DNA from: Eledone cirrhosa
Taxonomy: Eukaryota
Reading direction: 5' to 3'
Length of the DNA stretch: 64,000 nucleotides
Assembly: GCA_964016885.1 (NCBI GenBank)
Contig: OZ024757.1
Span: 682,001-746,000, forward strand
The notes below the pieces were generated by a model. It searched no databases, was not told the origin of the DNA, and saw nothing but the letters and a program-made list of their open reading frames with translations. The translations under genes were made by a program, and so were the position numbers. Shown here one piece after another: positions 2,990 to 54,200 of this stretch (position 1 is its first letter; every line of letters starts with the position of its first letter).

Positions 2990-3180
2990 AATGAAGGAAG
3001 TGTGGTAAGGAACCAGGTGGACCATAACACACCAGAGTACTCGATACTTAGGGTAGTAGAGTGGGTAACAGGAAAAGAGTCAAGACCCCGACGGCTGAGT
3101 TCTGGCCGTTTTGACAGCTGGATCTGAACTAGCTGTCAAAACGGCCAGAACTCAGCCGTCGGGGTCCTGACTCTTTTCCC
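2990..3180. mobile_element. TA-flanked interspersed element ending in a 49-bp-arm hairpin (probable Penelope-like terminus)
   Basis: Sits between (TA)n runs. Arms 3071-3119 and 3131-3179 have one mismatch and an 11-nt loop. Shares cagag(t/c)actc(g/a)a with ~5830 and ~22903. Confidence 0.55.
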
Positions 3181-6130: not shown

Positions 6131-6512
6131 TATATAAAGAATCTTACTTTATTAACAAATACGGACCCCGTCTAAACACTTCTTCCTAAGACGAACCCAC
6201 AACATACACACGTTGTCATACATACCTACATCAGCATACATCCTACATACATTTCTATCCACATATAAACACAATGACATACGTAAACACACGTTCTATG
6301 GCGCAACACAAATATACACAAATTCGCATACCTTTTGATGTTTATAGATATACATGTGCCGACATGCACACATACGCATACACACACATGTATTGAACAT
6401 TGATGGGTGCATACATATTTGTACACAAGTATCCCATACGGCAGGGCCCCATCGATTCCCCTTGCAGTACGTCCAATTTGGACTCACACACGCCTTGTTG
6501 TTATGACAATAC

Positions 6513-9500
6513 TATAACGGCGGCGAAGATTCGAAAACGAATCTGAGCTTTCCCGCCTCTGGGACAAGCCGTGGTAACTTGTTTACGCTCAAGAGACTTG
6601 GGAGAGGCTAAACACAGGTCAGAGGTGTTTACGCCTGACAGAAAATAGGTCAGAGGATATACCCATCTTTCTGACTTGTTTACGCTTCGCAAACTAATCC
6701 CTTGGGAGACTAACCAAAGTTCAGAGGATATATCTATCCTTCTAACTTCAACTCTTATAAAGACAGGGATTGTTTACGCCCAACCACACACAGATTTGCT
6801 GCGGCAGCATACAACCAAAAACGCAAACATCAAGCTCAGCGAAAAAGAATGTACTGCTTTCGCTGAGTTGAAGAAAATGTTTTCCGAGGCTACAATGCTG
6901 AGTTACCCCAAATCTGACGCCCCAATGTGTTTATTGACTGATGCATCCGATTTCGGAGTTGGAGGTGTGCTTCAACAACTCTCTGGCGATATTTGGCGAC
7001 CTGTATCTTTTTTCTCTAAGCGATTAAAACCCGCCGAAACTAAGTACAGCACATTCAGTCGTGAATTATTGGCAGCATATCTTGCTGTCAAGCATTTTCG
7101 ACACATGCTAGAAGGTCGTGTGTTCGCTATATACACCGACCACAAACCACGAGTGTACGCGTTCAATGCCAAGCCTGACCGACACTCACCCAGGGAGGTC
7201 CGACATCTGGACTTCATTTCTCAGTACACTACTGATATTCGGTACATTAAGGGTGCCACCAATTCAGCAGCTGATGCTCTATTGCGCATGGAGCTTAACG
7301 CAATCCACACCACTGCCACTATCGACCTCCGGAAGATTGCAGCGGATCAACAGAATGACGAGGAACTGCTGCAACTCCGGAAATCATCCTTGAAATTGAA
7401 GGAATGCCCGCTGCCCTCTTCTTCGGGTTATATTTGGTGCGACATCTCCACAGGCCACGAGCGCCCATACGTGCCCCGGAAACATCGACGCGACGTTTTC
7501 TCGGCACTGCATTCACTGGCTTTGTGTGGCCCAACATCAACAAGGACACCCGCGAATGGGCTAGGAACTGCATCGCGTGCCAGAAGGCGAAAATTCACCG
7601 GCACATCAAAGCCCCGATCGGTTCTTTCGCAACACCTGATGCACGGTTCCAACATGTGCATATAGACATAGTTGGACCTTTGCTTCCTTCCCACAACTAC
7701 ACTCATCTTCTCACCTGTGTCGACCGATTTTCTCCTCTGACGGATATTACTGCGGAAACTGTCGCCAAAACGCTAGTGTTTCACTGGGTTTCGCGTTTCG
7801 GCACACCCGCGACCATCACTACGGATAGAGGACGTCAGTTCGATTCGCACCTATTTACCGAGCTGACTCGTCTCCTCGGGTGCAAACACATCCGTACAAG
7901 AGCGTATCACCCTGCCGCTCACGGCATGGTAGAACGCTTACACCGCCAGCTAAAATCATCTAGCAAGGCTTACGAAGACTCCACTAACTGGTTCGAATAC
8001 CTCCCACTCATTCTTCTTGGTATTCGTTCCACTGTTAAGGAGGGAGTCGGACATTCTCTGGCTGAAATGGTGTATGGCACCGTACTCACTCTACCCGGAC
8101 AAATGATTGCTCCTGTTTCGCCACAAGAACTTCCAGACCCTACAAAATTTGTGCACTGTTTACGGTCATCGATGTCGCATCTGTCTCCTTCAGCCCCTAA
8201 ACAACAGCACGTTACTTCACACATACCAAAAGACATCGATACATGGACGCATGTTTTCGTTAGAAATGACTGTATTCCATCGCAACTTCGTCCGCCGTAT
8301 TCCGGGCCCTATAAGGTGATACAGAAATGCCCTAAGTATTTCGTCCTCGACTTGAACGGGAAACGAAATACTGTCTCCATTGATCGTTTAAAAAAAGCGT
8401 TCATAGAACAGGAATTGCCACCAGTACCCATCGTTTCTCCGGCAGACTTACCAACAACTTTGTCCGACACAAACACGACAAATTCTGCACAACCCCGACA
8501 CACCAAATCCGGAAGAACAGTCCGATGGCCCACGCTATACATACAAGTTTATCGGATAAGTACAAATTATGCATCTGGTCGACATTTCGGCTAATTTGTA
8601 TATTTCAGTGAATCGGCCAATTTCTGTGGTCATGAACTATTGCTACACACAAATCAATTAACTCTGTGCATCACCCACATCAAAAGAACAGACAAAAGAA
8701 CATTTTTCCGTTTCTATGAAATGAACGAACTTTTAATCAACAAACTTTTCGTACGAACATTTTCAATTTTATGTAACATCACAGTACATTTTCCTGCATG
8801 TAAATTTCTTTTGCTTTACATGTTTTCTTTCATGTCTCCTATTTGTAAATGACTTTCATGTGTTTTTTTATTTTTACTGATTTTCTTCAACAACACACCT
8901 AGTCATACCTATCTTCATTTCACATGCACCTAGATCGTTCAATCTTAGCTTTCTCACTGGAAGGGGGATACTATAACGGCGGCGAAGATTCGAAACCGAA
9001 TCTGAGCTTTCCCGCCTCTGGGACAAGCCGTGGTAACTTGTTTACGCTCAAGAGACTTGGGAGAGGCTAAACACAGGTCAGAGGTGTTTACGCCTGACAG
9101 AAAATAGGGCAGAGGATATATCCATCTTTCTGACTTGTTTACGCTTGGCAAACTAATCCCTTGGGAGACTAACCAAAGTTCAGAGGATATATCTATCCTT
9201 CTAACTTCAACTCTTATAAAGACAGGGATTGTTTACGCCAAAAATAGAAAAGAAGTGGATACAGACAAGACGACGTTTTTTACAAGCTCTCGTCACGAAA
9301 AACCAGTCTGCCATTTATTTTCACCTTCCTGGCTGATCGCTGACTCCTGCAATACAAATAAGTAAATATACTGATACGCCGCTCACACGCATTCATAGTG
9401 AGTCCACCATTTGTACACGCACCATTCATTTCTGTTTACACATATTATAATCGTATTCTGTGATATTTGAATTTACGTGGCTCGATGAGCCACCAAATTA

Positions 9501-9678: not shown

Positions 9679-10019
9679 ATACTCTACATCATTTCACCTC
9701 TTTTATTATTGATGTTATTTAGAGAGAATCGTTTTTGCAAATGACTGAAATTATCGAATATTATGTACGCCATTTTTACCTGTACCACAAAAATACTGGT
9801 CCATACACACACACACTCGAACACTAACATACAGACAGACACACACACTTCTCCGTATAAGACAAGAGCTGAAAAATATGTTTCAACATGTTAAAATAAA
9901 CCCCCACACATTCCTACTGACCGATTCATTTCCCTTATCACAACAATGAACCACTTTGCTACTCCCCCCCCCCCCCCCACACATTCCTACTGACCGATTC
10001 ATTTCCATTATCACAACAA

Positions 10020-10373
10020 GGCGGTGGATTGGCAGTATCGGTAGAGGGTCGGACGCCATGCTTTCCAGCATAGTTACGTCCCTTTACGATCTGAGTTCAA
10101 ATCCCGCCGAGGTTGACTTTGCCTTTCATCCTTACGGAGTCGATAAAATAAAGTACCAGTAATGCACTGGGTAATTGCTGGCCTTGTGCCTAAAGTAGAG
10201 ACAATTATCACAACAATGGGCGGTCGAGTGGCGGATGCCATGCTTTCCAGCATAGTTACGTCCCTTTACGATCTGAGTTCAAATCCCGCCGAGGTTGACT
10301 TTACCTTTCATCCTTACGGGGTCGATAAAAATAAATTACCAGTAATGCTGGCCTTGTGCCTAAAGTAGAAACA
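10020..10373 (+). mobile_element. Tandem dimer of a tRNA-derived SINE
   Basis: A-box-like tggcagtatcggtag, B-box gagttcaaatccc and core gccgaggttgactttgcctttcatcc..gtcgataaa..gtaccag. ATTATCACAACAA occurs at 10007, 10204 and 10374. Confidence 0.85.
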
Positions 10374-10479
10374 ATTATCACAACAAATGAACCACTTTGC
10401 TACACACACACATATAGTTGTCTTAATAGACATCTGAACTGTTGACCTCTCAACATGACTGCAACTAAATCAAGCGGAA

Positions 10480-10780
10480 AAGGTCACTCTTCGACAAACC
10501 TACATTTGGCGCGAAACCAGCTCGCGCTAAAATCAATTTAAACATTCACGTGACCTCTACCGATCAATCAAAATTGTTTTGACTACAAGAATTTATGCCA
10601 TACGAATAGGCGCAAATTTTATAGTGTTTATTCACGTGACATTCAACAACCAACCAAATTTTAATGCCTCTCAAGCCACTTTTTTCACATAAAACTGATC
10701 AGATTAGAGCAAAAATCACGAGCACTCTATCTCAAAATTATTTTTTGAAAAGCATAAGAAATGCGCAACCGGTAAAAACT
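10480..10780. promoter_or_regulatory. Candidate promoter with E2F and E-box sites
   Basis: TTTGGCGCGAAA at 10505-10516 (double E2F site), further GCGC-core variants at ~10522 and ~10608, ATTCACGTGAC twice (~10544, ~10630), locally CpG-enriched. Confidence 0.45.
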
Positions 10781-11160
10781 TAAAACTAAAACTGAATACT
10801 AATTAATACTTATTACTAATTTATACTTATTCCTAATTGAACTATTTTTCACTGGGAAAAATTTGTCAGCATTTACTTTTCCTTTTTACTAATATATCAC
10901 AACTCGTGTGTCACACCTCTATTTTATATATATATACAATTAAGTTAAAAATGTACATCTACATATGCATACTGAAATACTAGTGTGTATATGAATACAC
11001 ACACGTATACATATGCAGATGTAACAAGTCTTTCACTGGTTGCTTTACTGTGAGCAACTCAGCTATTCTGTATGTAAACACACAGACAAACCGGTTTTTA
11101 GAGTCATACTGGTTTTCGAGGAAACATCTTCCCTCTATTCTTCAGAAAGCCAGACAAGGA

Positions 11161-11203
11161 ATATTGAACTAGTTTCGTTGTTGTTACAACTCATCAGCAA
11201 TAT
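11161..11203 (-). ncRNA. Minimal type I hammerhead ribozyme, intact core
   Basis: Minus strand reads atattg CTGATGA gttgt-aaca-acaac GAAAC ta GTT caatat. Stem I is a perfect 6 bp, stem II is 5 bp with a G10.1-C11.1 pair, and stem III is the palindrome AACTAGTT. Confidence 0.8.
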
Positions 11204-11369
11204 TTCGTTATTTGTTTTTATTATTTCGTTATTTGTTTTTATCGTCTCCGCTGAACCGGTGCGTACTCACACTCTATGCAAATTAGTCTGCCCACTACTA
11301 ATTTTCATAGAAAAAGCATATAACGATATGTGCTTTTACAATTCTCCAGAAAGGCCGGTAGATAGGTAA

Positions 11370-11412
11370 ATATTGCTGATGGGTTGTAACAACAACGAAA
11401 CTAGTTCAATAT
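11370..11412 (+). ncRNA. Hammerhead motif copy with A9>G core substitution (likely impaired)
   Basis: atattg CTGATGG gttgtaacaacaac GAAACtaGTT caatat. Confidence 0.7.
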
Positions 11413-11721
11413 TCCTTGTCTGGCTTTCTGGGGAATAGAGGGAAGATGTTTCCTCGAAAACCAGTATGACTCTAAAAACCGGTTTGTCTGTGTGTTTACA
11501 TACAGAATAGCTGAGTTGCTCACAGTAAAGCAACCAGTGAAAGACTTGTTACATCTGCATATGTATACGTGTGTGTATTCATATACACACTAGTATTTCA
11601 GTATGCATATGTAGATGTACATTTTTAACTTAATTGTTTAAGCGTCAGTCATACAAAAGTGAGTTACAAACGAAACGAAATTTAATTTCGTTTCGTTATT
11701 TGTTTTTATATATATATATAT

Positions 11722-11932
11722 CAAAGACCCCCCTAGGTCACAAATGCCCATGTGATTTGCACCTAGAAAGTTTACCTCTGAGGCACAGGTCCGGGCAAAG
11801 TTGTATTAATAAGACCAACAGTCGACCATGCATATCACCTTTCACTTTCCACGCCACCAGTGATGTCCACCGGAAAGGCTATGGCCGATACAGCTTGGCA
11901 ATAAAGTGTCTTGCTCAAGGACACAACACATC
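11722..11932 (-). mobile_element. SINE-like interspersed repeat, truncated
   Basis: GC-richer block ending aaagtgtcttgctcaaggacacaac, the usual antisense signature downstream of tRNA-SINE heads; recognised from memory only. Confidence 0.5.
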
Positions 11933-13025
11933 ACTTTTCGATCTAACCCCTAACGCATGTTCCTCAACATGTATTTATATATATGTATATATATTAACAC
12001 ACCCGTGCATCTTCTGACGGTCTCCCACCGTATTCCGAAGTCTGAACAAAAGACTTACTGTTGTTGATTGTATAACCAAAATTAAGAGAGTCTAAACAAA
12101 AAACAAAGTTGTAAAAGATAATTTAGCTGCTATTTCTAGCAGTGTGAGATACTACGTAGAGGTTTCCTTATCGATATTTAACTGAGTGATACTTTTCGAT
12201 TTACCATCAATTAGATACGATTGGAAATGTGTTTGAATAAAATAAATTATATCAGGGACTTTTAACGTACAACACCGGTAAGAAAGTTTAAACATTGTCA
12301 ACGCACCGCGTACCTGCTGTCTTCATTACAATTTTAATTAGTCTAATTATATCTTGTGTAACAATTAAATATATATATACACACATAATTTTCTTTCCCT
12401 GACATCAGTCTTACACTGTCATATCTATTAACTTTACAATTGTGTCTACTAAGAGTTCCATTATAATCTGTAGTAGAAAAACGTCTATTTCACCAGAATA
12501 TCTGATATCAGTCATTTGTAGACAATATATATATTTAAACCACATATCAACCTAATATATACATATTTCCTATCAAATCTCTGGCTAAAGACATAAAGTC
12601 GGCCTCACTACTTTATTCTGACAAGATATCAATTCATGACTAAATATGAAGAAGTTACACCAACGTTGATGTCCTGAAATAAAGCTGATAACATCTTTGA
12701 AATTTCTAATTTAACAACAAAGAGATTATTTCTTTTGTTGCTTAGTAAAAACTAACAACTCTACACATTGATTATATATGAAGGAGGTAAGTGGACAAAG
12801 ATTCATTTGAAGTCTATAATAATGTATGTAAAAAATAGAATTATGTGAACCTTTCAACGATACAGTAATTATATAAAAGTGAAATTATATAACAACATTG
12901 AGAGAAGATATTTCAACCTCGTCATTTTATATATAGAGAAAAATACTTCCAAACTGAAATGGGTTATTTTTCAATAGACAGATTCCACTGTAACATGTAA
13001 TATAAAATATATTGTTATCATGACT

Positions 13026-13852: not shown

Positions 13853-16800
13853 CATATCATTCCTTGTTATATCACTACCAGTAGTCAATAGCCTGTCATA
13901 TCATTCCTTGTTATATCACTACCAGTAGTCTATAACCTGTCATATCATTCCTTGTTATATCACTACCAGTAGTCAATAACCTGTCATGTCATTCCTTGTT
14001 ATATCACTACCAGTAGTCAATAACCTGTCATATCATTCCTTGTTATATCACTACCAGTAGTCAATAACCTGTCATATCATTCCTTGTTATATCATTACTA
14101 GTAGTCAATAACCTGTCATATCATTCCTTGTTATATCACTACCAGTAGTCTATAACCTGTCATATCATTCCTTGTTATATCACTACCAGTAGTCAATAAC
14201 CTGTCATATCATTCCTTGTTATATCACTACCACTAGTCAATAACCTCTTATATCATTCCTTGTTATATCACTACCACTAGTCAATAACCTCTCAAATCAT
14301 TCCTTGTTATATCACTACCACTAGTCAATAACCTCTCAAATCATTCCTTGTTATATCACTACCAGTAGTCAATAACCTGTCATATCATTCCTTGTTATAT
14401 CACTACCAGTAGTCAATAACCTGTCATATCATTCCTTGTTATATCACTACCAGTAGTCAATAACCTGTCATATCATTCCTTGTTATATCACTACCAGTAG
14501 TCAATAGCCTGTCATATCATTCCTTGTTATATCACTACCAGTAGTCAATAACCTGTCATATAATTCCTTGTTATATCACTACCAGTTGTCAATAACCTGT
14601 CATATCATTCCTTGTTATATCACTACTAGTAGTCAATAACCTCTCATATCATTGCTTGTTATATCACTACCAGTAGTCAATAACCTGTCATATCATTCCT
14701 TGTTATATCACTACCAGTAGTGAATAACCTCTCATATAATTCCTTGTTATATCACTACCAGTTGTCAATAACCTGTCATATCATTCCTTGTTATATCACT
14801 ACTAGTAGTCAATAACCTCTCATATCATTGCTTGTTATATCACTACCAGTAGTCAATAACCTGTTATATCACTACCAGTAGTCAATAACCTCTCATATCA
14901 TTCCTTGCTATATCACTACCAGTAGCCAATAACCTCTCATATCATCGTTGTTATATCACTACCAGTAGTCAATAACCTGTCATATCATTCCTTGTTATAT
15001 AACTACCAGTAGCCAATAACCTCTCATATCATTCCTTGTTATATCACTACCAGTAGTCAATAATCTGTCATATCATTCCTTGTTATATCACTACCAGTAG
15101 TCAATAACCTCTCATATCCTTCCTTGTTATATCACTACCAGTAGTCAATAACCTGTCATATCATTCCTTGTTATATCACTACCAGTAGAAAATAACCTGT
15201 CATATCATTCCTTGTTATATCACTACCAGTAGAAAATAACCTGTCATATCATTCCTTGTTATATCACTACCAGTAGTCAATAACCTCTCATATCATTCCC
15301 TGTTATATCACTACCAGTAGTCAATAACCTGTCATATCATTCCTTGTTATATCACTACCAGTAGTCAATAACCTCTCATATCATTCCTTGTTATATCACT
15401 ACCAGTAGTCAATAACCCGTCATATCATTCCTTGTTATATCACTGCCAGTAGTCAATAACCTCTCATATCATTCCTTGTTATATCACTACCAGTAGTCAA
15501 TAACCTGTCATATCATTCCTTGTTATATCACTACCAGTAGTCAATAACCTCTCATATCATTCCTTGTTATATCGCTACCAGTAGTCAATAACCTGTCATA
15601 TCATTCCTTGTTATATCACTACCAGTAGTCAATAACCTGTCATATCATTCCTTGTTATATCACTACCAGTAGTCAATAACCTGTCATATCATTCCTTGTT
15701 ATATCACTACCAGTAGTCAATAACCTGTCATATCATTCCTTGTTATATCACTGCCAGTAGTCAATAACCTGTCATATCATTCCTTGTTATATCACTACCA
15801 GTAGTCAATAACCTGTCATATCATTCCTTGTTATATCACTACCAGTAGTCAATAACCTGTCATATCATTCCTTGTTATATCACTACCAGTAGTCAATAAC
15901 CTGTCATATCATTCCTTGTTATATCACTACCAGTAGTCAATAACCTGTCATATCATTCCTTGTTATATCACTACCAGTAGTCAATAACCTGTCATATCAT
16001 TCCTTGTTATATCACTACCAGTAGTCAATAACCTGTCATATCATTCCTTGTTATATCACTACCAGTAGTCAATAACCTCTCATATCATTCCTTGTTATAT
16101 CACTAACAGTAGTCAATAACCTGTCATATCATTCCTTGTTATATCACTACCAGTAGTCAATAACCTCTCATATCATTCCTTGTTATATCACTACCAGTAG
16201 TCAATAACCTCTCATATCATTCCTTGTTATATCACTACCAGTAGTCAATAACCTCTCATATCATTCCCTGTTATATCACTACCAGTAGTCAATAACCTGT
16301 CATATCATTCCTTGTTATATCACTACCAGTAGTCAATAACCTGTCATATCATTCCTTGTTATATCACTGCCAGTAGTCAATAACCTCTCATATCATTCCT
16401 TGTTATATCACTAACAGTAGTCAATAACCTGTCATATCATTCCTTGTTATATCACTACCAGTAGCCAATAACCTGTCATATCATTCCTTGTTATATCACT
16501 ACCAGTAGTCAATAACCTCTCATATAATTCCTTGTTATATCACTACCAGTAGTCAATAGCCTGTCATATCATTCCTTGTTATATCACTAACAGTAGTCAA
16601 TAACCTGTCATATCATTCCTTGTTATATCACTACCAGTAGTCAATAACCTCTCATATCATTCCTTGTTATATCACTAACAGTAGTCAATAACCTGTCATA
16701 TCATTCCTTGTTATATCACTACCAGTAGTCAATAACCTATCATATAATTCCTTGTTGTATCACTACCAGTAGTCAATAGCCTGTCATATCATTCCTTGTT

Positions 16801-19378
16801 ATATCACTACTAGTAGTCAATAGCCTGTCATATCATTCCTTGTTATATCACTACTAGTAGTCAATAGCCTGTCATATCATTCCTTGTTATATCACTACTC
16901 GTAGTCAATAGCCTGTCATATCATTCCTTGTTATATCACTACCACTAGTCAATAGCCTGTCATATCATTCCTTGTTATATCACTACCAGTAGTCAATAAC
17001 CTGTCATATCATTCCTTGTTATATCACTACCAGTAGTCAATAGCCTGTCATATCATTCCTTGTTATGTCACTACCAGTAGTTAATAACCTGTCATATCAT
17101 TCCTTGTTATATCACTACCAGTAGTCAATAACCTCTCATATCATTCCTTGTTATATCACTACCAGTAGTCAATAACCTCTCATATCTTTCCTTGTTATAT
17201 CACTACCAGTAGTCAATAACCTGTCATATCATTCCTTGTTATATCACTACTACCAGTAGTCAATAGCCTGTCATATCATTCCTTGTTATATCACTACTAG
17301 TAGTCAATAGCCTGTCATATCATTCCTTGTTATATCACTACTCGTAGTCAATAGCCTGTCATATCATTCCTTGTTATATCACTACCAGTAGTCAATAACC
17401 TCTCATATCATTCCTTGTTATATCACTACCAGTAGTCAATAACCTCTCATATCATTCCTTGTTATATCAATACCAGTAGTCAATAACCTGTCATATCATT
17501 CCTTGTTATATCACTACTACCAGTAGTCAATAGCCTGTCATATCATTCCTTGTTACATCACTACTAGTAGTCAATAGCCTGTCATATCATTCCTTGCTAT
17601 ATCACTACTAGTAGTCAATAGCCTGTCATATCATTCCTTGTTATATCACTACCAGTAGTCAATAACCTCTCATATCATTCCTTGTTATATCACTACCAGT
17701 AGTCAATAACCTGTCATATCATTCCTTGTTATATAACTACCAGAAGTCAATAACCTGTCATATCATTCCTTGTTATGTCACTACCAGTAGTCAATAACCT
17801 GTCATATCATTCCTTGTGATATCACTACCAGTAGTCAATAACCTCTCATATAATTCCTTGTTATATCACTAACAGTAGTCAATAACCTATCATATCATTC
17901 CTTGTTATATCACTACCAGTAGTCAATAACCTCTCATATCATTCCTTGTTATATCACTACCAGTAGTCAATAACCTCTCATATCATTCCTTGTTATATCA
18001 CTACTACTAGTAGTCAATAACCTCTCATATCATTCCTTGTTATATTACTACCAGTAGTCAATAACCTGTCATATCATTCCTTGTTATATCACTACCAGTA
18101 GTCAATAACCTCTCATTTCATTCCTTGTTATATCACTACCAGTAGTCAATAACCTGTCATATCATTCCTTGTTATATCACTACTACCAGTAGTCAATAGC
18201 CTGTCATATCATTCCTTGTTATATCACTACTAGTAGTCAATAGCCTGTCATATCATTCCTTGCTATATCACTACTAGTAGTCAATAGCCTGTCATATCAT
18301 TCCTTGTTATATCACTACCAGTAGTCAATAGCCTGTCATATCATTCCTTGTTATATCACTACTAGTAGTCAATAGCCTGTCATATCATTCCTTGTTATAT
18401 CACTACTCGTAGTCAATAGCCTGTCATATCATTCCTTGTTATATCACTACTCGTAGTCAATAACCTCTATCATTCCTTGTTATATCACTACTAGTAGTCA
18501 ATAACCTGTCATATCATTCCTTGTTATATCACTACTACCAGTAGTCAATAGCCTGTCATATCATTCCTTGTTATATCACTACTCGTAGTCAATAACCTCT
18601 CATATCATTCCTTGTTATATCACTACTAGTAGTCAATAACCTGTCATATCATTCCTTGTTATATCACTACTACCAGTAGTCAATAGCCTGTCATATCATT
18701 CCTTGTTATATCACTACTAGTAGTCAATAACCTCTCATATCATTCCTTGTTATATCACTACCAGTAGTCAATAGCCTGTCATATCATTCCTTGTTATACC
18801 ACTACCAGTAGTCAATAGCCTGTCATATCATTCCTTGTTATATCACTACCAGTAGTCAATAGCCTGTCATATCATTCCTTGTTATACCACTACCAGTAGT
18901 CAATAGCCTGTCATATCATTCCTTGTTATATCACTACCAGTAGTCAATAGCCTGTCATATCATTCCTTGTTGTACCACTACCAGTAGTCAATAGCCTGTC
19001 ATATCATTCCTTGTTATATCACTACCAGTAGTCAATAGCCTGTCATATCATTCCTTGTTATACCACTACCAGTAGTCAATAGCCTGTCATATCATTCCTT
19101 GTTATATCACTACCAGTAGTCAATAGCCTGTCATATCATTCCTTGTTATACCACTACCAGTAGTCAATAGCCTGTCATATCATTCCTTGTTATATCACTA
19201 CCAGTAGTCAATAGCCTGTCATATCATTCCTTGTTATATCACTACCAATAGTCAATAGCCTGTCATATCATTCCTTGTTATATCACTACCAGTAGTCAAT
19301 AGCCTGTCATATCATTCCTTGTTATATCACTACCAGTAGTCAATAACATCTCATATCATTCATTGTTATTTCACTACT
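13853..19378. repeat. 44-bp satellite array, ~125 monomers
   Basis: Consensus CATATCATTCCTTGTTATATCACTACCAGTAGTCAATAACCTGT; period 44 measured directly. Confidence 0.98.
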
Positions 19379-28030: not shown

Positions 28031-28905
28031 TACACAAGGTTGTATAATGTAACATATGTATATTTATGTCTATATATATAGACATTACACAAAGTTATAT
28101 AATGTAATATATATATATATGTCTGTATATAGAGACATTACACAAGGTTGTATAATGTAATATTGACATATGTATATATATGTCTGTATATATAGACATC
28201 ACACAAGGTTGTATAATGTAACATATATATATATTTATGTCTATATATATAGACATTACACAAGGTTATAAAATGTAATATATATATATATGTCTGTATA
28301 TATAGACATTACAGACGGTTGTACAATGTAATATTGACATATGTATATATGTCTGTATATATAGATATCATACAAGGTTGTATGATGTAATATTGATAAC
28401 AAATTAAAAAACTAAAGTAAGTTGATTTTTCAATTAAAGGTCTATATCTAGAGATTATTGATGTAAAAGTCTAAAATTTTCTCTAATAGATCTATCTCTA
28501 GTATTTAAGTATTCTCTATTATCTCATACTGTTTCTTTCTTATTTCAGAATACCAGATGACATTGGGATAAATTTTTAAACCTTGGATACATCAACATTT
28601 ATCATCAAAGACTAAAGTGTTTTATACAGAACTGATATAACACTGTTTATATAAATCTATGACTGACTTAGTGTACAATATTTCATCAGAAGTGAGTTTA
28701 TTGGCAAATGTTCGTTTCTTCACTATCTCGAATGAAGATTTTGTATTTTAATTAAACTTGGATGACAAAGAAGTTTTCATAATCTTCAGATATTAACTGA
28801 GATCAAAGTTGATAGAAATATAGAATCAGACAATATTTCTAGAAATATAATATAAATAAAACACAAGAAAAACGTCTATATACTTTGGTGAGAAGAAGAA
28901 ACATT

Positions 28906-30435
28906 ATGGAAAATAAGTTGGGTGAAAAGAAGGTTAAATGTGAAACATTGCCTAAAGGTATTAGTATTCCTAATGAGATAACAAAGAATAGAGGAGAGAA
29001 GCCATACCATTGTGATATCTGTGGTAAATCATTCTCTCAGAAAGGACACTTAACAAGACACAATCTCATCCATACAGGAGAGAAACCATACCATTGTAAT
29101 ATCTGTGGTAAATCATTCTCTCGAGATAATGTCTTCACAAATCACAAACGTATTCATACAGGAGAGAAACCATACCACTGTGATATCTGTGGTAAATCAT
29201 TTTCAAAGAAAGGAAACTTATTAACACACAATCTTACTCATACAGGAGAGAAGCCATACCATTGTAATATCTGTGGTAAGTCATTTTCACAGAAAGGAAG
29301 CTTATTAACACACAATCTTACTCATACAGGAGAGAAACCATACCACTGTGATATCTGTGGTAAATCATTCTCTCTGAAAAGACACTTAACAACACACAAT
29401 CTCATCCATACAGGAGAGAAACCATACCATTGTAATATCTGTGGTAAATCATTCTCTCAAAATAATGCCTTAACAAATCACAAACGTGTTCATACAGGAG
29501 AGAAACCATACCAGTGTGATATCTGTGGTAAATCATTCTCTCAGAAAGTACACTCAGCAACACACAATCTCATCCATACAGGAGTGAAGCCCTATCACTG
29601 TGATATCTGTGGTAAATCATTCTCTCTGAAAAGACACTTAACAACACACAATCTCATCCATACAGGAGAGAAACCATACCATTGTAATATCTGTGGTAAA
29701 TCATTCTCTCAAAATAATGTCTTAACAAATCACAAACGTATTCATACAGGAGAGAAACCATACCACTGTGATATCTGTGGTAAAGCATTCTCTCTGAAAG
29801 GACACTTAACAACACACAATCTCATCCATACAGGAGAGAAACCATTCCACTGTGATATCTGTGGTAAATCATTTTCAAAGAAAGGAAACTTATTAACACA
29901 CAATCTTACTCATACAGGAGAGAAGCCATACCATTGTAATATCTGTGGTAAGTCATTTTCACAGAAAGGAAGCTTATTAACACACAATCTTACTCATACA
30001 GGAGAGAAACCATACCACTGTGATATCTGTGGTAAATCATTCTCTCTGAAAAGACACTTAACAACACACAATGTCATCCATACAGGAGAGAAACCATACC
30101 ATTGTAATATCTGTGGTAAGTCATTTTCACAGAAAGGAAGCTTATTAACACACAATCTTACTCATACAGGAGAGAAGCCATACCATTGTAATATCTGTGG
30201 TAAATCATTTTCACAGAAAGGACACTTATTAGCACACAATCTTACTCATACAGGAGAGAAGCCATACCATTGTAATATCTGTGGTAAGTCATTTTCACAG
30301 AAAGGAAGCATATTAACACACAATCTTACTCATACAGGAGAGAAACCATACTACTGTGATATCTGTGGTAAATTATTCTCTCTGGAAGGACATTTAACAA
30401 CACACAATCTCATCCATATAGGAGAGAAACCATAG
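28906..30435 (+). CDS. Tandem C2H2 zinc-finger protein, 17 fingers, 509 aa, no recognisable KRAB/ZAD-type effector domain
   Basis: ATG at 28906 (the ORF-track start at 28885 is TTG). 33-aa leader then 17 x 28-aa CxxC..HxxxH-TGEKP units. Strong acceptor AG at 28547-28548; AATAAA at 31517. Confidence 0.92.
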
Positions 30436-34216: not shown

Positions 34217-34686
34217 ATTATTATGCACATTCACTAGCTATATATAAAATACTACATTTCATCAGAAAGATTTCAAAGTTCGAGGTGAGGTCGCTGCATC
34301 TTACAATATACAAAGACCATGTCGAGAAAAATACTTTGGTAAGCAATCTTACTTATTTTCATTTGTACACTGATCCACACATCAAATTTTATCCATACAT
34401 ATCTTTATATATATATATATATAATGAAGGAAGTGTGGTAAGGAACCAGGTGGACCATAATGCACCAGAGTACTCGATACTTAGGGTTCTGGCCGTTTTG
34501 ACAGCTGGATCTGAACTAGCTGTCAAAACGGCCAGAACTCAGCCGTCGGGGTCCTGACTCTTTTCCCATATATATATATAATATGTGTGTGTGTGTGTAT
34601 GTGTGAATTTACTACATCTAAGATATACGGCATGTTTAATAAATAAACATTTTGAAAGCCTCAGTTATAAATAGAAGACTGACAGC

Positions 34687-42322: not shown

Positions 42323-43107
42323 ACAATTAAGTTAAAAATGTACATCTACATATGCATACTGAAATACTAGTGTGTATATGAATACACACACGTATACATA
42401 TGCAGATGTAACAAGTCTTTCACTGGTTGCTTTACTGTGAGCAACTCAGCTATTCTGTATGTAAACACACAGACAAACCGGTTTTTAGAGTCATACTGGT
42501 TTTCGAGGAAACATCTTCCCTCTATTCTTCAGAAAGCCAGACAAGGAATATTGAACTAGTTTCGTTGTTGTTACAACTCATCAGCAATATTTCGTTATTT
42601 GTTTTTATTATTTCGTTATTTGTTTTTATCGTCTCCGCTGAACCGGTGCGTACTCACACTCTATGCAAATTAGTCTGCCCACTACTAATTTTCATAGAAA
42701 AAGCATATAACGATATGTGCTTTTACAATTCTCCAGAAAGGCCGGTAGATAGGTAAATATTGCTGATGGGTTGTAACAACAACGAAACTAGTTCAATATT
42801 CCTTGTCTGGCTTTCTGGGGAATAGAGGGAAGATGTTTCCTCGAAAACCAGTATGACTCTAAAAACCGGTTTGTCTGTGTGTTTACATACAGAATAGCTG
42901 AGTTGCTCACAGTAAAGCAACCAGTGAAAGACTTGTTACATCTGCATATGTATACGTGTGTGTATTCATATACACACTAGTATTTCAGTATGCATATGTA
43001 GATGTACATTTTTAACTTAATTGTTTAAGCGTCAGTCATACAAAAGTGAGTTACAAACGAAACGAAATTTAATTTCGTTTCGTTATTTGTTTTTATATAT
43101 ATATATA
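42323..43107. mobile_element. 270-bp inverted-repeat element with hammerheads, unit 2 copy
   Basis: Arms 42323-42592 and 42755-43024; intact hammerhead on the - strand at 42548-42590; same three arm mismatches as unit 1. Confidence 0.75.
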
Positions 43108-45242: not shown

Positions 45243-48200
45243 CATATCATTCCTTGTTATATCACTACCAGTAGTCAATAGCCTGTCATATCATTCCTTG
45301 TTATATCACTACCAGTAGTCTATAACCTGTCATATCATTCCTTGTTATATCACTACCAGTAGTCAATAACCTGTCATGTCATTCCTTGTTATATCACTAC
45401 CAGTAGTCAATAACCTGTCATATCATTCCTTGTTATATCATTACTAGTAGTCAATAACCTGTCATATCATTCCTTGTTATATCACTACCAGTAGTCTATA
45501 ACCTGTCATATCATTCCTTGTTATATCACTACCAGTAGTCAATAACCTGTCATATCATTCCTTGTTATATCACTACCACTAGTCAATAACCTCTTATATC
45601 ATTCCTTGTTATATCACTACCACTAGTCAATAACCTCTCAAATCATTCCTTGTTATATCACTACCACTAGTCAAAAACCTCTCAAATCATTCCTTGTTAT
45701 ATCACTACCAGTAGTCAATAACCTGTCATATCATTCCTTGTTATATCACTACCAGTAGTCAATAACCTGTCATATCATTCCTTGTTATATCATTACCAGT
45801 AGTCAATAACCTGTCATATCATTCCTTGTTATATCACTACCAGTAGTCAATAGCCTGTGATATCATTCCTTGTTATATCACTACCAGTAGTCAATAACCT
45901 GTCATATAATTCCTTGTTATATCACTACCAGTTGTCAATAACCTGTCATATCATTCCTTGTTATATCACTACTAGTAGTCAATAACCTCTCATATCATTG
46001 CTTGTTATATCACTACCAGTAGTCAATAACCTGTTATATCACTACCAGTAGTCAATAACCTCTCATATCATTCCTTGCTATATCACTACCAGTAGCCAAT
46101 AACCTCTCATATCATTCCTTGTTATATCACTACCAGTAGTCAATAATCTGTCATATCATTCCTTGTTATATCACTACTAGTAGTCAATAACCTCTCATAT
46201 CATCCTTGTTATATCACTACCAGTAGTCAATAACCTGTCATATCATTCCTTGTTATATCACTACCAGTAGCCAATAACCTCTCATATCATTCCTTGTTAT
46301 ATCACTACCAGTAGTCAATAATCTGTCATATCATTCCTTGTTATATCACTACCAGTAGTCAATAACCTGTCATATCATTCATTGTTATATCACTACCAGT
46401 AGTCAATAACCTCTCATATCCTTCCTTGTTATATCACTACCAGTAGAAAATAACCTGTCATATCATTCCTTGTTATATCACTACCAGTAGAAAATAACCT
46501 GTCATATCATTCCTTGTTATATCACTACCAGTAGTCAATAACCTGTCATATCATTCCTTGTTATATCACTACCAGTAGAAAATAACCTGTCATATCATTC
46601 CTTGTTATATCACTACCAGTAGAAAATAACCTGTCATATCATTCCTTGTTATATCACTACCAGTAGTCAATAACCTCTCATATCATTCCCTGTTATATCA
46701 CTACCAGTAGTCAATAACCTGTCATATCATTCCTTGTTATATCACTACCAGTAGTCAATAACCTCTCATATCATTCCTTGTTATATCACTACCAGTAGTC
46801 AATAACCCGTCATATCATTCCTTGTTATATCACTGCCAGTAGTCAATAACCTCTCATATCGTTCCTTGTTATATCACTACCAGTAGTCAATAACCTGTCA
46901 TATCATTCCTTGTTATATCACTACCAGTAGTCAATAACCTCTCATATCATTCCTTGTTATATCGCTACCAGTAGTCAATAACCTGTCATATCATTCCTTG
47001 TTATATCACTACCAGTAGTCAATAACCTGTCATATCATTCCTTGTTATATCACTACCAGTAGTCAATAACCTGTCATATCATTCCTTGTTATATCACTAC
47101 CAGTAGTCAATAACCTGTCATATCATTCCTTGTTATATCACTGCCAGTAGTCAATAACCTGTCATATCATTCCTTGTTATATCACTACCAGTAGTCAATA
47201 ACCTGTCATATCATTCCTTGTTATATCACTACCAGTACTCAATAACCTGTCATATCATTCCTTGTTATATCACTACCAGTAGTCAATAACCTGTCATATC
47301 ATTCCTTGTTATATCACTACCAGTAGTCAATAACCTGTCATATCATTCCTTGTTATATCACTACCAGTAGTCAATAACCTGTCATATCATTCCTTGTTAT
47401 ATCACTACCAGTAGTCAATAACCTGTCATATCATTCCTTGTTATATCACTACCAGTAGTCAATAACCTGTCATATCATTCCTTGTTATATCACTACCAGT
47501 AGTCAATAACCTCTCATATCATTCCTTGTTATATCACTAACAGTAGTCAATAACCTGTCATATCATTCCTTGTTATATCACTACCAGTAGTCAATAACCT
47601 CTCATATCATTCCTTGTTATATCACTACCAGTAGTCAATAACCTCTCATATCATTCCTTGTTATATCACTACCAGTAGTCAATAACCTCTCATATCATTC
47701 CCTGTTATATCACTACCAGTAGTCAATAACCTGTCATATCATTCCTTGTTATATCACTACCAGTAGTCAATAACCTGTCATATCATTCCTTGTTATATCA
47801 CTGCCAGTAGTCAATAACCTCTCATATCATTCCTTGTTATATCACTAACAGTAGTCAATAACCTGTCATATCATTCCTTGTTATATCACTACCAGTAGCC
47901 AATAACCTGTCATATCATTCCTTGTTATATCACTACCAGTAGTCAATAACCTCTCATATAATTCCTTGTTATATCACTACCAGTAGTCAATAGCCTGTCA
48001 TATCATTCCTTGTTATATCACTAACAGTAGTCAATAACCTGTCATATCATTCCTTGTTATATCACTACCAGTAGTCAATAACCTGTCATGTCATTCCTTG
48101 TTATATCACTACCAGTAGTCAATAACCTGTCATATCATTCCTTGTTATATCATTACTAGTAGTCAATAACCTGTCATATCATTCCTTGTTATATCACTAC

Positions 48201-51200
48201 CAGTAGTCTATAACCTGTCATATCATTCCTTGTTATATCACTACCAGTAGTCAATAACCTGTCATATCATTCCTTGTTATATCACTACCACTAGTCAATA
48301 ACCTCTTATATCATTCCTTGTTATATCACTACCACTAGTCAATAACCTCTCAAATCATTCCTTGTTATATCACTACCACTAGTCAAAAACCTCTCAAATC
48401 ATTCCTTGTTATATCACTACCAGTAGTCAATAACCTGTCATATCATTCCTTGTTATATCACTACCAGTAGTCAATAACCTGTCATATCATTCCTTGTTAT
48501 ATCACTACCAGTAGTCAATAACCTGTCATATCATTCCTTGTTATATCACTACCAGTAGTCAATAGCCTGTCATATCATTCCTTGTTATATCACTACCAGT
48601 AGTCAATAACCTGTCATATAATTCCTTGTTATATCACTACCAGTTGTCAATAACCTGTCATATCATTCCTTGTTATATCACTACTAGTAGTCAATAACCT
48701 CTCATATCATTGCTTGTTATATCACTACCAGTAGTCAATAACCTGTTATATCACTACCAGTAGTCAATAACCTCTCATATCATTCCTTGCTATATCACTA
48801 CCAGTAGCCAATAACCTCTCATATCATTCCTTGTTATATCACTACCAGTAGTCAATAATCTGTCATATCATTCCTTGTTATATCACTACTAGTAGTCAAT
48901 AACCTCTCATATCATCCTTGTTATATCACTACCAGTAGTCAATAACCTGTCATATCATTCCTTGTTATATCACTACCAGTAGCCAATAACCTCTCATATC
49001 ATTCCTTGTTATATCACTACCAGTAGTCAATAATCTGTCATATCATTCCTTGTTATATCACTACCAGTAGTCAATAACCTGTCATATCATTCCTTGTTAT
49101 ATCACTACCAGTAGTCAATAACCTCTCATATCCTTCCTTGTTATATCACTACCAGTAGAAAATAACCTGTCATATCATTCCTTGTTATATCACTACCAGT
49201 AGAAAATAACCTGTCATATCATTCCTTGTTATATCACTACCAGTAGTCAATAACCTGTCATATCATTCCTTGTTATATCACTACCAGTAGAAAATAACCT
49301 GTCATATCATTCCTTGTTATATCACTACCAGTAGATAATAACCTGTCATATCATTCCTTGTTATATCACTACCAGTAGTCAATAACCTCTCATATCATTC
49401 CCTGTTATATCACTACCAGTAGTCAATAACCTGTCATATCATTCCTTGTTATATCACTACCAGTAGTCAATAACCTCTCATATCATTCCTTGTTATATCA
49501 CTACCAGTAGTCAATAACCCGTCATATCATTCCTTGTTATATCACTGCCAGTAGTCAATAACCTCTCATATCGTTCCTTGTTATATCACTACCAGTAGTC
49601 AATAACCTGTCATATCATTCCTTGTTATATCACTACCAGTAGTCAATAACCTCTCATATCATTCCTTGTTATATCGCTACCAGTAGTCAATAACCTGTCA
49701 TATCATTCCTTGTTATATCACTACCAGTAGTCAATAACCTGTCATATCATTCCTTGTTATATCACTACCAGTAGTCAATAACCTGTCATATCATTCCTTG
49801 TTATATCACTACCAGTAGTCAATAACCTGTCATATCATTCCTTGTTATATCACTGCCAGTAGTCAATAACCTGTCATATCATTCCTTGTTATATCACTAC
49901 CAGTAGTCAATAACCTGTCATATCATTCCTTGTTATATCACTACCAGTAGTCAATAACCTGTCATATCATTCCTTGTTATATCACTACCAGTAGTCAATA
50001 ACCTGTCATATCATTCCTTGTTATATCACTACCAGTAGTCAATAACCTGTCATATCATTCCTTGTTATATCACTACCAGTAGTCAATAACCTGTCATATC
50101 ATTCCTTGTTATATCACTACCAGTAGTCAATAACCTGTCATATCATTCCTTGTTATATCACTACCAGTAGTCAATAACCTGTCATATCATTCCTTGTTAT
50201 ATCACTACCAGTAGTCAATAACCTCTCATATCATTCCTTGTTATATCACTAACAGTAGTCAATAACCTGTCATATCATTCCTTGTTATATCACTACCAGT
50301 AGTCAATAACCTCTCATATCATTCCTTGTTATATCACTACCAGTAGTCAATAACCTCTCATATCATTCCTTGTTATATCACTACCAGTAGTCAATAACCT
50401 CTCATATCATTCCCTGTTATATCACTACCAGTAGTCAATAACCTGTCATATCATTCCTTGTTATATCACTACCAGTAGTCAATAACCTGTCATATCATTC
50501 CTTGTTATATCACTGCCAGTAGTCAATAACCTCTCATATCATTCCTTGTTATATCACTAACAGTAGTCAATAACCTGTCATATCATTCCTTGTTATATCA
50601 CTACCAGTAGCCAATAACCTGTCATATCATTCCTTGTTATATCACTACCAGTAGTCAATAACCTCTCATATAATTCCTTGTTATATCACTACCAGTAGTC
50701 AATAGCCTGTCATATCATTCCTTGTTATATCACTAACAGTAGTCAATAACCTGTCATATCATTCCTTGTTATATCACTACCAGTAGTCAATAACCTGTCA
50801 TGTCATTCCTTGTTATATCACTACCAGTAGTCAATAACCTGTCATATCATTCCTTGTTATATCATTACTAGTAGTCAATAACCTGTCATATCATTCCTTG
50901 TTATATCACTACCAGTAGTCTATAACCTGTCATATCATTCCTTGTTATATCACTACCAGTAGTCAATAACCTGTCATATCATTCCTTGTTATATCACTAC
51001 CACTAGTCAATAACCTCTTATATCATTCCTTGTTATATCACTACCACTAGTCAATAACCTCTCAAATCATTCCTTGTTATATCACTACCACTAGTCAAAA
51101 ACCTCTCAAATCATTCCTTGTTATATCACTACCAGTAGTCAATAACCTGTCATATCATTCCTTGTTATATCACTACCAGTAGTCAATAACCTGTCATATC

Positions 51201-54200
51201 ATTCCTTGTTATATCACTACCAGTAGTCAATAGCCTGTCATATCATTCCTTGTTATATCACTACCAGTAGTCAATAACCTGTCATATAATTCCTTGTTAT
51301 ATCACTACCAGTTGTCAATAACCTGTCATATCATTCCTTGTTATATCACTACTAGTAGTCAATAACCTCTCATATCATTGCTTGTTATATCACTACCAGT
51401 AGTCAATAACCTGTTATATCACTACCAGTAGTCAATAACCTCTCATATCATTCCTTGCTATATCACTACCAGTAGCCAATAACCTCTCATATCATTCCTT
51501 GTTATATCACTACCAGTAGTCAATAATCTGTCATATCATTCCTTGTTATATCACTACTAGTAGTCAATAACCTCTCATATCATCCTTGTTATATCACTAC
51601 CAGTAGTCAATAACCTGTCATATCATTCCTTGTTATATCACTACCAGTAGCCAATAACCTCTCATATCATTCCTTGTTATATCACTACCAGTAGTCAATA
51701 ATCTGTCATATCATTCCTTGTTATATCACTACCAGTAGTCAATAACCTGTCATATCATTCCTTGTTATATCACTACCAGTAGTCAATAACCTCTCATATC
51801 CTTCCTTGTTATATCACTACCAGTAGAAAATAACCTGTCATATCATTCCTTGTTATATCACTACCAGTAGAAAATAACCTGTCATATCATTCCTTGTTAT
51901 ATCACTACCAGTAGTCAATAACCTGTCATATCATTCCTTGTTATATCACTACCAGTAGAAAATAACCTGTCATATCATTCCTTGTTATATCACTACCAGT
52001 AGAAAATAACCTGTCATATCATTCCTTGTTATATCACTACCAGTAGTCAATAACCTCTCATATCATTCCCTGTTATATCACTACCAGTAGTCAATAACCT
52101 GTCATATCATTCCTTGTTATATCACTACCAGTAGTCAATAACCTCTCATATCATTCCTTGTTATATCACTACCAGTAGTCAATAACCCGTCATATCATTC
52201 CTTGTTATATCACTGCCAGTAGTCAATAACCTCTCATATCGTTCCTTGTTATATCACTACCAGTAGTCAATAACCTGTCATATCATTCCTTGTTATATCA
52301 CTACCAGTAGTCAATAACCTCTCATATCATTCCTTGTTATATCGCTACCAGTAGTCAATAACCTGTCATATCATTCCTTGTTATATCACTACCAGTAGTC
52401 AATAACCTGTCATATCATTCCTTGTTATATCACTACCAGTAGTCAATAACCTGTCATATCATTCCTTGTTATATCACTACCAGTAGTCAATAACCTGTCA
52501 TATCATTCCTTGTTATATCACTGCCAGTAGTCAATAACCTGTCATATCATTCCTTGTTATATCACTACCAGTAGTCAATAACCTGTCATATCATTCCTTG
52601 TTATATCACTACCAGTAGTCAATAACCTGTCATATCATTCCTTGTTATATCACTACCAGTAGTCAATAACCTGTCATATCATTCCTTGTTATATCACTAC
52701 CAGTAGTCAATAACCTGTCATATCATTCCTTGTTATATCACTACCAGTAGTCAATAACCTGTCATATCATTCCTTGTTATATCACTACCAGTAGTCAATA
52801 ACCTGTCATATCATTCCTTGTTATATCACTACCAGTAGTCAATAACCTGTCATATCATTCCTTGTTATATCACTACCAGTAGTCAATAACCTCTCATATC
52901 ATTCCTTGTTATATCACTAACAGTAGTCAATAACCTGTCATATCATTCCTTGTTATATCACTACCAGTAGTCAATAACCTCTCATATCATTCCTTGTTAT
53001 ATCACTACCAGTAGTCAATAACCTCTCATATCATTCCTTGTTATATCACTACCAGTAGTCAATAACCTCTCATATCATTCCCTGTTATATCACTACCAGT
53101 AGTCAATAACCTGTCATATCATTCCTTGTTATATCACTACCAGTAGCCAATAACCTGTCATATCATTCCTTGTTATATCACTACCAGTAGTCAATAACCT
53201 CTCATATAATTCCTTGTTATATCACTACCAGTAGTCAATAGCCTGTCATATCATTCCTTGTTATATCACTAACAGTAGTCAATAACCTGTCATATCATTC
53301 CTTGTTATATCACTACCAGTAGTCAATAACCTGTCATGTCATTCCTTGTTATATCACTACCAGTAGTCAATAACCTGTCATATCATTCCTTGTTATATCA
53401 TTACTAGTAGTCAATAACCTGTCATATCATTCCTTGTTATATCACTACCAGTAGTCTATAACCTGTCATATCATTCCTTGTTATATCACTACCAGTAGTC
53501 AATAACCTGTCATATCATTCCTTGTTATATCACTACCACTAGTCAATAACCTCTTATATCATTCCTTGTTATATCACTACCACTAGTCAATAACCTCTCA
53601 AATCATTCCTTGTTATATCACTACCACTAGTCAAAAACCTCTCAAATCATTCCTTGTTATATCACTACCAGTAGTCAATAACCTGTCATATCATTCCTTG
53701 TTATATCACTACCAGTAGTCAATAACCTGTCATATCATTCCTTGTTATATCACTACCAGTAGTCAATAACCTGTCATATCATTCCTTGTTATATCACTAC
53801 CAGTAGTCAATAGCCTGTCATATCATTCCTTGTTATATCACTACCAGTAGTCAATAACCTGTCATATAATTCCTTGTTATATCACTACCAGTTGTCAATA
53901 ACCTGTCATATCATTCCTTGTTATATCACTACTAGTAGTCAATAACCTCTCATATCATTGCTTGTTATATCACTACCAGTAGTCAATAACCTGTTATATC
54001 ACTACCAGTAGTCAATAACCTCTCATATCATTCCTTGCTATATCACTACCAGTAGCCAATAACCTCTCATATCATTCCTTGTTATATCACTACCAGTAGT
54101 CAATAATCTGTCATATCATTCCTTGTTATATCACTACTAGTAGTCAATAACCTCTCATATCATCCTTGTTATATCACTACCAGTAGTCAATAACCTGTCA

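What the first reader, a model, noticed from the sequence alone, without database searches (positions are those of the whole stretch)
11368..11425. All three arm differences are A>G and fall in CTGA(T/A)GA boxes
Seen: the right arm has CTGATGG versus CTGATGA and CTGGGGA versus CTGAAGA; the other ~267 bp match, and both units agree. The hammerhead consensus polarises at least the first change as A>G. On the + strand the mismatches become G-U pairs; on the - strand they are A:C, the ADAR-preferred context. Inference: either ADAR-edited RNA was reverse-transcribed into the genome, or sense-strand ribozymes were selectively silenced inside a host transcript. All intact cores I found in the window are antisense to the ZNF gene. 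Three events is a small sample.
Basis: partly seen in the sequence, partly recalled or inferred. Interest (0 to 1): 0.7.

Follow-up and report, generated by a model that had tools for sequence, protein, structure and literature searches.

The report
Ribozyme retroelement inherits RNA-editing marks
The three flagged base differences are not a coherent editing or silencing signal (one is G-to-A and two sit in a mutation hotspot), but the jumping ribozyme family they belong to carries recurrent one-strand A-to-G changes shared by all repeats of an insertion, likely RNA edits copied back into inherited DNA.

Summary
The three arm differences exist (11382, 11431, 11432) and both 31.4-kb units agree, but the reading fails. 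The inverted repeat is a Penelope-type inverted insertion of a 467-nt non-LTR retrozyme with over 5,000 copies. The family reads GA at 11431-11432 (409 of 452 monomers). So the left arm carries G>A and the right arm A>G, in a 4-nt hotspot of single-monomer changes (32 events against 3.7 expected) that lies in a stem, not a hammerhead box. The core change A9G is essentially private (4 genomic copies, 2 events). Core changes across the family run at background (10 against 9.4), so there is no selective silencing. The editing idea does hold at family level. Changes shared by all monomers of an insertion are A>G-biased (46 against 18 T>C). They lie in stems, favour a 3' G and recur on unrelated haplotypes; UAG site 11285 is G in 21% of copies. 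One insertion elsewhere has 10 A>G shared by both arms. Single-monomer changes, the class of the window's bases, show no bias (28 against 37). No RNA data were available. The scan noted ADAR write-back before on other DNA of this genome.

The parts
10936..11205 (-). Left arm: inverted, 5'-truncated retrozyme copy (matches element positions 11368-11637); intact hammerhead core; G>A at the 11431-equivalent base (window 11142)
11160..11204 (-). Type I hammerhead with intact CUGAUGA/GAAA core (C3 at 11197, A9 at 11191)
11201..11242 (.). 21-bp duplication at the inversion junction
11224..11707 (+). Right arm: one full 467-nt monomer (11241-11707) plus 17 nt, ending at the family's fixed 3' end next to (TA)n; differs from its closest sister insertion only at 11382 and 11432
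11369..11413 (+). Type I hammerhead: stem I 11369-11375/11407-11413, core 11376-11382 with A9G, stem II 11383-11396 (11384/11395 covary U-A to A-U in the family), GAAA 11397-11400, 2-bp palindromic stem III, predicted cut after 11406
   Evidence: core numbering recalled
11382..11382 (+). A9G core change, private to this insertion and one multiply edited insertion elsewhere
11430..11433 (+). Hotspot of single-monomer substitutions in the distal stem (pairs with 11344-11347); holds two of the three differences
11276..11309 (+). Stem holding the family's most recurrent template-borne A>G sites (11280-11282, UAG 11285, 11309); unchanged in the window's copy
42323..43094 (.). Second copy of the whole insertion in the 31,387-bp segmental duplicate
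28843..30432 (+). C2H2 zinc-finger open frame; inclusion of the element in its transcript not shown

Best explanation
The inverted repeat is an inverted insertion of a 467-nt hammerhead retrozyme whose three arm differences are single-arm changes that likely arose during or after reverse transcription, while the family as a whole likely inherits ADAR edits from its RNA template. Shown: architecture, allele counts, hotspot, and a strand-specific A>G excess only among changes shared by all monomers of an insertion. Inferred: a folded, probably circular, monomer RNA is edited A-to-I in its stems; a Penelope-like reverse transcriptase primes at both nicked strands of a (TA)n target and copies the same molecule repeatedly, so each inosine appears as G in every monomer and both arms; edited copies go on to act as sources, so lineages accumulate A>G, some later completed by U>C to G-C pairs. 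The 11430-11433 hotspot is likely polymerase misreading where the enzyme enters the long stem or meets a modified base (untested).
For: Window bases: family GA 409 of 452; A9G 4 copies against 5,257 exact intact 24-mers; hotspot 32 against 3.7; single-monomer A>G 28 against T>C 37; core changes 10 against 9.4 expected. Family: array-fixed A>G 46 against T>C 18 counted once per haplotype background, p=2e-4, and 10 of 14 alleles on 2 or more backgrounds are A>G; tree count 72 against 32; in 147 insertions chosen only by their junction, fixed 69 against 22 (insertions not independent) and mosaic 20 against 28. 11285 shows four gametes with 11263, 11271, 11282 and 11340, while 11261, 11263, 11271 and 11340 show three G/A-type combinations among the pairs tested, pointing to recurrent change, not recombination. 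3' G in 12 of 26 changed against 14 of 109 other A sites, p=4e-4. Wobble-forming changes in stems are 34 A>G to 5 C>T where the DNA spectrum predicts 22% A>G. G000:C2:86.97 Mb has 10 A>G shared by both arms, 9 of 10 with 5' U or A; L268 has 8 A>G, 5 of them shared with sister insertions.
Against: No RNA run was available, so editing itself was not observed. Array-fixed changes private to one insertion are A>G 2 against T>C 7, and distinct sites are 26 against 17 (p=0.17). No 5' G depletion at site level (4 of 26 against 17 of 109), although that is the strongest ADAR rule in PMC9989829; per-event rates lean the right way (5' U 0.64, A 0.53, C 0.29, G 0.30). Four of 8 UAG sites have no event. 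The excess is almost all in paired sites (unpaired 12 against 7), as selection on structure would also give. The tree rests on 467 columns and may overcount recurrence. The window's right monomer differs from its sister by exactly two A>G, A9 is changed in the multiply edited copy, 11432 is array-fixed in L205, and 2 multi-monomer arrays are mosaic at 11285, so an edited template is not excluded for those two bases.
Confidence: 0.66

Rival explanations
1. The right arm was copied from an ADAR-edited monomer of a dimeric or multimeric template (A9 and 11432 edited), the left arm from an unedited monomer with a hotspot error at 11431.
For: Right monomer differs from its closest sister only by two A>G; mosaic arrays exist at the top site 11285; A9 is among the changes in the multiply edited insertion.
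Against: Both sites are GAG; the right monomer has none of the recurrent edits; monomer pieces with 2 or more private A>G (6, from 4 insertions) are about as common as those with 2 or more T>C (3); 11432 G is mosaic in 7 of 8 multi-monomer arrays; A9G occurs in 4 copies only.
Confidence: 0.17
2. The family A>G excess comes from ordinary DNA mutation in source copies filtered by selection on RNA structure (A-U to G-U tolerated), or from a non-ADAR template error process.
For: Excess confined to paired sites; 7 of 19 paired T>C events face a G partner; private array-fixed changes show no excess; no site-level 5' G depletion.
Against: DNA A>G rate is 4e-4 per site per monomer, too low for 4-8 origins at one site; C>T in stems should dominate but is 5 against 34; clusters of 3 to 10 A>G occur.
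Confidence: 0.17
3. Sense-strand ribozymes inside host transcripts are selectively silenced by core mutations.
For: The one plus-strand core in each unit is the changed one, and the two intact cores are antisense to the ZNF frame. A preprint reports retrozyme depletion in Xenopus introns.
Against: 16 of 428 whole hammerheads have any core change and only the window's is A>G; mosaic core changes 10 against 9.4 expected; in 68 of 75 insertions with hammerheads on both strands each strand keeps an intact one. Intronic position is unshown. A lone 2-bp-stem-III hammerhead probably cuts weakly (by analogy with PMC7229834).
Confidence: 0.05

Closest known systems
Metazoan non-LTR retrozymes (PMC7229834, passages read; bioRxiv 10.64898/2026.07.22.740005, first fifth and passages read)
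   Same: Tandem, non-coding, low-GC monomers each with a type I hammerhead; thousands of copies; short helix III as in dimer-acting amphibian forms.
   Different: Monomer of 467 nt is slightly above the 150-450 bp range given; 124 of 205 insertions are inverted; PMC7229834 only floats RNA editing as a possible cause of circRNA heterogeneity and the passages show no edits fixed in genomic copies.
Penelope-like element insertions (PMC8557442, passages read)
   Same: Inverted 5'-truncated copy at the 5' end, partial tandems, (TA)n targets, different ends on the two sides.
   Different: No ORF; the two fixed 3' ends lie about 70 nt apart against a 30-40 bp tail; autonomous partner not identified.
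ADAR editing of repeat dsRNA and of HDV circular RNA (PMC9989829, passages; PMC3185552, abstract and outline)
   Same: One-strand A>G in stems, 3' G and 5' U/A leaning, top site UAG, clusters; heritable change in a small structured RNA.
   Different: Here recorded in chromosomal DNA and passed through retrotransposition; 5' G depletion not shown per site. For LINE-1, ADAR1 acts mainly without editing (PMC5224506, passages).

Membership tests
Non-LTR retrozyme | Type I hammerhead in each tandem monomer | tested here: met
   HH9-like match (35 and 31 bits, below the gathering score of 52); intact core in 412 of 428 whole hammerheads; covarying stem II pair
Non-LTR retrozyme | Short, low-GC, non-coding tandem monomer in many copies | tested here: met
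   467 nt, 36% GC; over 5,000 copies in arrays
Non-LTR retrozyme | Expressed as self-cleaved linear and circular RNA | not testable with these tools
   No RNA holder listed; sharing of variants along arrays fits a circle but is indirect
Penelope-like mobilisation | Inverted 5'-truncated copy and microsatellite target | tested here: met
   124 of 205 insertions inverted; (TA)n flanks and two fixed 3' ends
Penelope-like mobilisation | Autonomous partner with matching pLTR or 3' end | not tested
   No dedicated search; the ORF scan of flanks was not followed up
ADAR signature, family level | Strand-specific A>G in template-borne changes | tested here: met
   46 against 18 and 72 against 32; but private-only 2 against 7
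ADAR signature, family level | Double-stranded context, clustering, recurrence | tested here: met
   54 of 72 events at predicted pairs; clusters; four-gamete test
ADAR signature, family level | Neighbour rule (5' G depleted, 3' G favoured) | tested here: inconclusive
   3' G p=4e-4, 5' G no site-level depletion; per-event trend in the expected direction
ADAR signature, family level | Inosine seen in RNA | not testable with these tools
ADAR signature, the window's three bases | All A>G on one strand and shared by both arms | tested here: not met
   11431 is G>A; none is shared between arms

The most novel reading that the evidence does not exclude
ADAR is the main source of heritable sequence change in this retrozyme: site-specific edits of its circular RNA are written into the germline at insertion, edited copies stay active, and lineages ratchet A-U pairs through G-U to G-C, so the genome holds a multi-generation record of the editome of one circular RNA, with a second, non-ADAR hotspot marking a modified base or stall site on the template.
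Probability: 0.45. Interest if true: 0.72.

Novelty: new variant of a known kind. Interest (0 to 1): 0.52.

Why it matters
RNA editing is normally transient. If the family pattern is ADAR's, low-level site-specific editing becomes inherited DNA change and shapes the evolution of a mobile ribozyme (one UAG site is G in 21% of about 7,000 copies). The fixed-versus-mosaic split within arrays is also a simple genomic test that separates template-borne changes from later ones, and it supports one RNA molecule being copied repeatedly into both arms. The three flagged bases themselves are ordinary.

Tried and rejected
No RNA holder listed; no evidence either way on expression. Raw RAD reads of three DNA runs show A at 11382 in 503 of 504, 299 of 300 and 245 of 246 reads; a non-A base (the window's G) at 11432 is frequent there (169 of 344 in X22) but from few start points, so not a family frequency. 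Contigs of unrecorded type show only A at 11382 and almost only A at 11432; run kind unknown and contigs drop rare variants, so not used. Genome-wide 24-mer counts (73 with A>G against 21 with T>C) agree in direction but count tandem copies, so not treated as events. Recombination as the cause of recurrence at 11285: rejected by the gamete tables. CpG decay: accounts for recurrent G>A and C>T at 11677 and 11689, which are mostly mosaic, not for A>G. Hotspot as a template-jump or ligation scar: no deletion excess at 11430-11433 (insertions not counted), no pile-up of 5' truncations, and the predicted cut is about 25 nt away. Hotspot age test inconclusive (7 events in 166 monomers in the least diverged third, 14 in 108 in the most diverged). 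No paper on A9G activity found, so inactivation is inferred from the general statement in PMC3088659.

Full report
Observation. The arms 10933-11205 and 11368-11640 differ at 11382, 11431 and 11432, plus the junction base 11638. The insertion is duplicated 31,387 bp away with no difference over bases 10000-13000 (the units are 99.6% alike over 10.7 kb), so the agreement of both units is one observation. Rfam gives HH9-like matches below the gathering score on both arms.

What the element is. The arms are copies of a 467-nt monomer: 5,257 exact copies of its hammerhead 24-mer lie in the genome, many in tandem and in head-to-head inversions. Insertions sit in (TA)n and end at one of two fixed points, near 11635-11640 or at 11707. 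This matches non-LTR retrozymes (PMC7229834, passages; bioRxiv 10.64898/2026.07.22.740005, first of five parts and passages) and the inverted 5'-truncated copies and microsatellite bias of Penelope-like elements (PMC8557442, passages). The inverted repeat is therefore likely a product of insertion. I did not establish the host taxon; earlier notes call the genome octopus-like.

Sample. I aligned 226 regions; 205 held the element at 88% identity or more over 60 nt or more, 21 held only a short end or a diverged sister family, and 82 overlapping or weak alignments were dropped. The window's twin and two redundant loci were removed beforehand and three duplicates afterwards, leaving 202 insertions and 622 monomer pieces. 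Of these, 147 were chosen only by their flanking junction; the rest were best matches to the right arm or the first places on contig C1.

The three bases. At 11431-11432 the family reads GA in 409 of 452 monomers, GG in 19, AA in 13, TA in 9. The left arm thus carries G>A and the right arm A>G. These bases pair with 11346 and 11345 in the predicted distal stem; CTGAAGA is a chance likeness to a box. Positions 11430-11433 hold 32 single-monomer events against 3.7 expected, mixed G>A, G>T and A>G. A9G occurs in the two window units and in one other insertion; A6G in none. Of 428 whole hammerheads 16 have a core change and only the window's is A>G; mosaic core changes number 10 against 9.4 expected; 7 of 75 insertions with hammerheads on both strands have lost one strand's only copy. 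Single-monomer changes are strand-symmetric (A>G 28, T>C 37, G>A 86, C>T 68 of 402). The window's arm divergence is matched or exceeded by 18 of 84 inverted insertions. The intact cores antisense to the ZNF frame (28843-30432) are two independent elements, and no data place them in its transcript. That A9G inactivates is inferred from the general statement on core mutations in PMC3088659 (passages); core numbering is recalled.

Family-level signal. Changes shared by all monomers of an insertion behave differently. A>G alleles are fixed in 86 and mosaic in 30 multi-monomer arrays, all other types in 90 and 374 (not independent). Counted once per haplotype background, A>G is 46 and T>C 18; on a tree of 165 insertions 72 and 32. 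The top site, UAG at 11285 in an A-U stem, is G in 1,501 of 7,077 genomic matches, arises on 4 (clustering) to 8 (tree) backgrounds, and shows four gametes with flanking sites that are compatible with each other. A 3' G is enriched, as in the metazoan motif (PMC9989829, passages). An insertion at G000:C2:86.97 Mb has 10 A>G, including A9, shared by both arms, and its arms differ at five other places, among them the 11431 hotspot: this is what a template-borne edit looks like, and the window does not look like it. One sublineage shares five A>G across several insertions and L268 adds three more, so changed copies likely remain active.

Against the ADAR reading. No RNA was available. Array-fixed changes private to one insertion are 2 A>G and 7 T>C; distinct sites are 26 and 17; there is no site-level 5' G depletion; unpaired sites show little excess (12 and 7). 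Selection on structure predicts an excess in stems, but it also predicts many C>T there (observed 5 against 34 A>G, expected share of A>G 22%) and cannot easily give repeated origins at a DNA rate of 4e-4.

Mechanism. Shown: architecture, counts, spectra. Inferred: a folded, probably circular monomer is edited in its stems, then copied repeatedly from both nicked target strands by a Penelope-like enzyme, fixing edits in every monomer; reverse-transcription errors and later DNA mutations stay in single monomers. The window's bases fall in the second class; I put the chance that its two true A>G are edits at about 15-20%.

Novelty. Retrozymes, Penelope-type inversions and ADAR editing of repeats are known. 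Searches listed no paper on ADAR edits fixed in genomic retrozyme copies; most subscription journals and all supplements were not seen. PMC5224506 (passages) reports editing-independent action on LINE-1; PMC3185552 (abstract and outline) covers site-specific editing of a circular RNA. Earlier notes of this scan describe hyper-edited Penelope and retrozyme copies on other DNA of this genome; my family-level reading was formed before that look-up, and the notes prompted the search. Verdict: the finding as written is mostly wrong; its general idea is likely right for the family.

Noticed in passing
window 5959 and 37344, minus strand: A second type I hammerhead-like motif with an intact CTGATGA/GAAA core and (TA)n in stem III, from another family; Rfam did not list it.
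   Followed up: partly
window 11430-11433 (family-wide): Non-ADAR hotspot of single-monomer substitutions, about 9-fold over background, cause unknown.
   Followed up: partly
L263/L264 (G000:C2:86.970 Mb): Inverted insertion with 10 A>G shared by both arms, including the A9 core base.
   Followed up: yes
L083, L101, L112, L117, L119, L157, L194, L200, L214, L252: A diverged sister family shares the same 3' end.
   Followed up: no
window 13853-19377 and 45243-58243: 44-bp satellite of 5.5 kb in one unit and 13 kb in the other, within a 31-kb tandem duplication holding a C2H2 zinc-finger frame (530 open codons in the first unit, 894 in the second, L261).
   Followed up: no
window 6509-6780 and about 8968-9239: Another inverted repeat of about 272 bp at 98.5% identity, seen in the unit-against-unit comparison.
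   Followed up: no
run X22 on window 11459-11466: Reads from about one start point carry A>G at 11459, 11460 and probably 11466 with 15 other differences: possibly a multiply edited genomic copy in another individual.
   Followed up: no
L078 (G000:C18:1.449 Mb): Array with heterogeneous monomers in a higher-order repeat, 11432 G in 6 of 9 monomers.
   Followed up: no
runs X2 and X3: Contigs on the element have very high summed depth; run kind is not on record, so abundant RNA is possible but not shown.
   Followed up: no
window 3078-3172: Near-perfect GC-rich hairpin of about 95 nt, with a related copy near 34486-34566.
   Followed up: no
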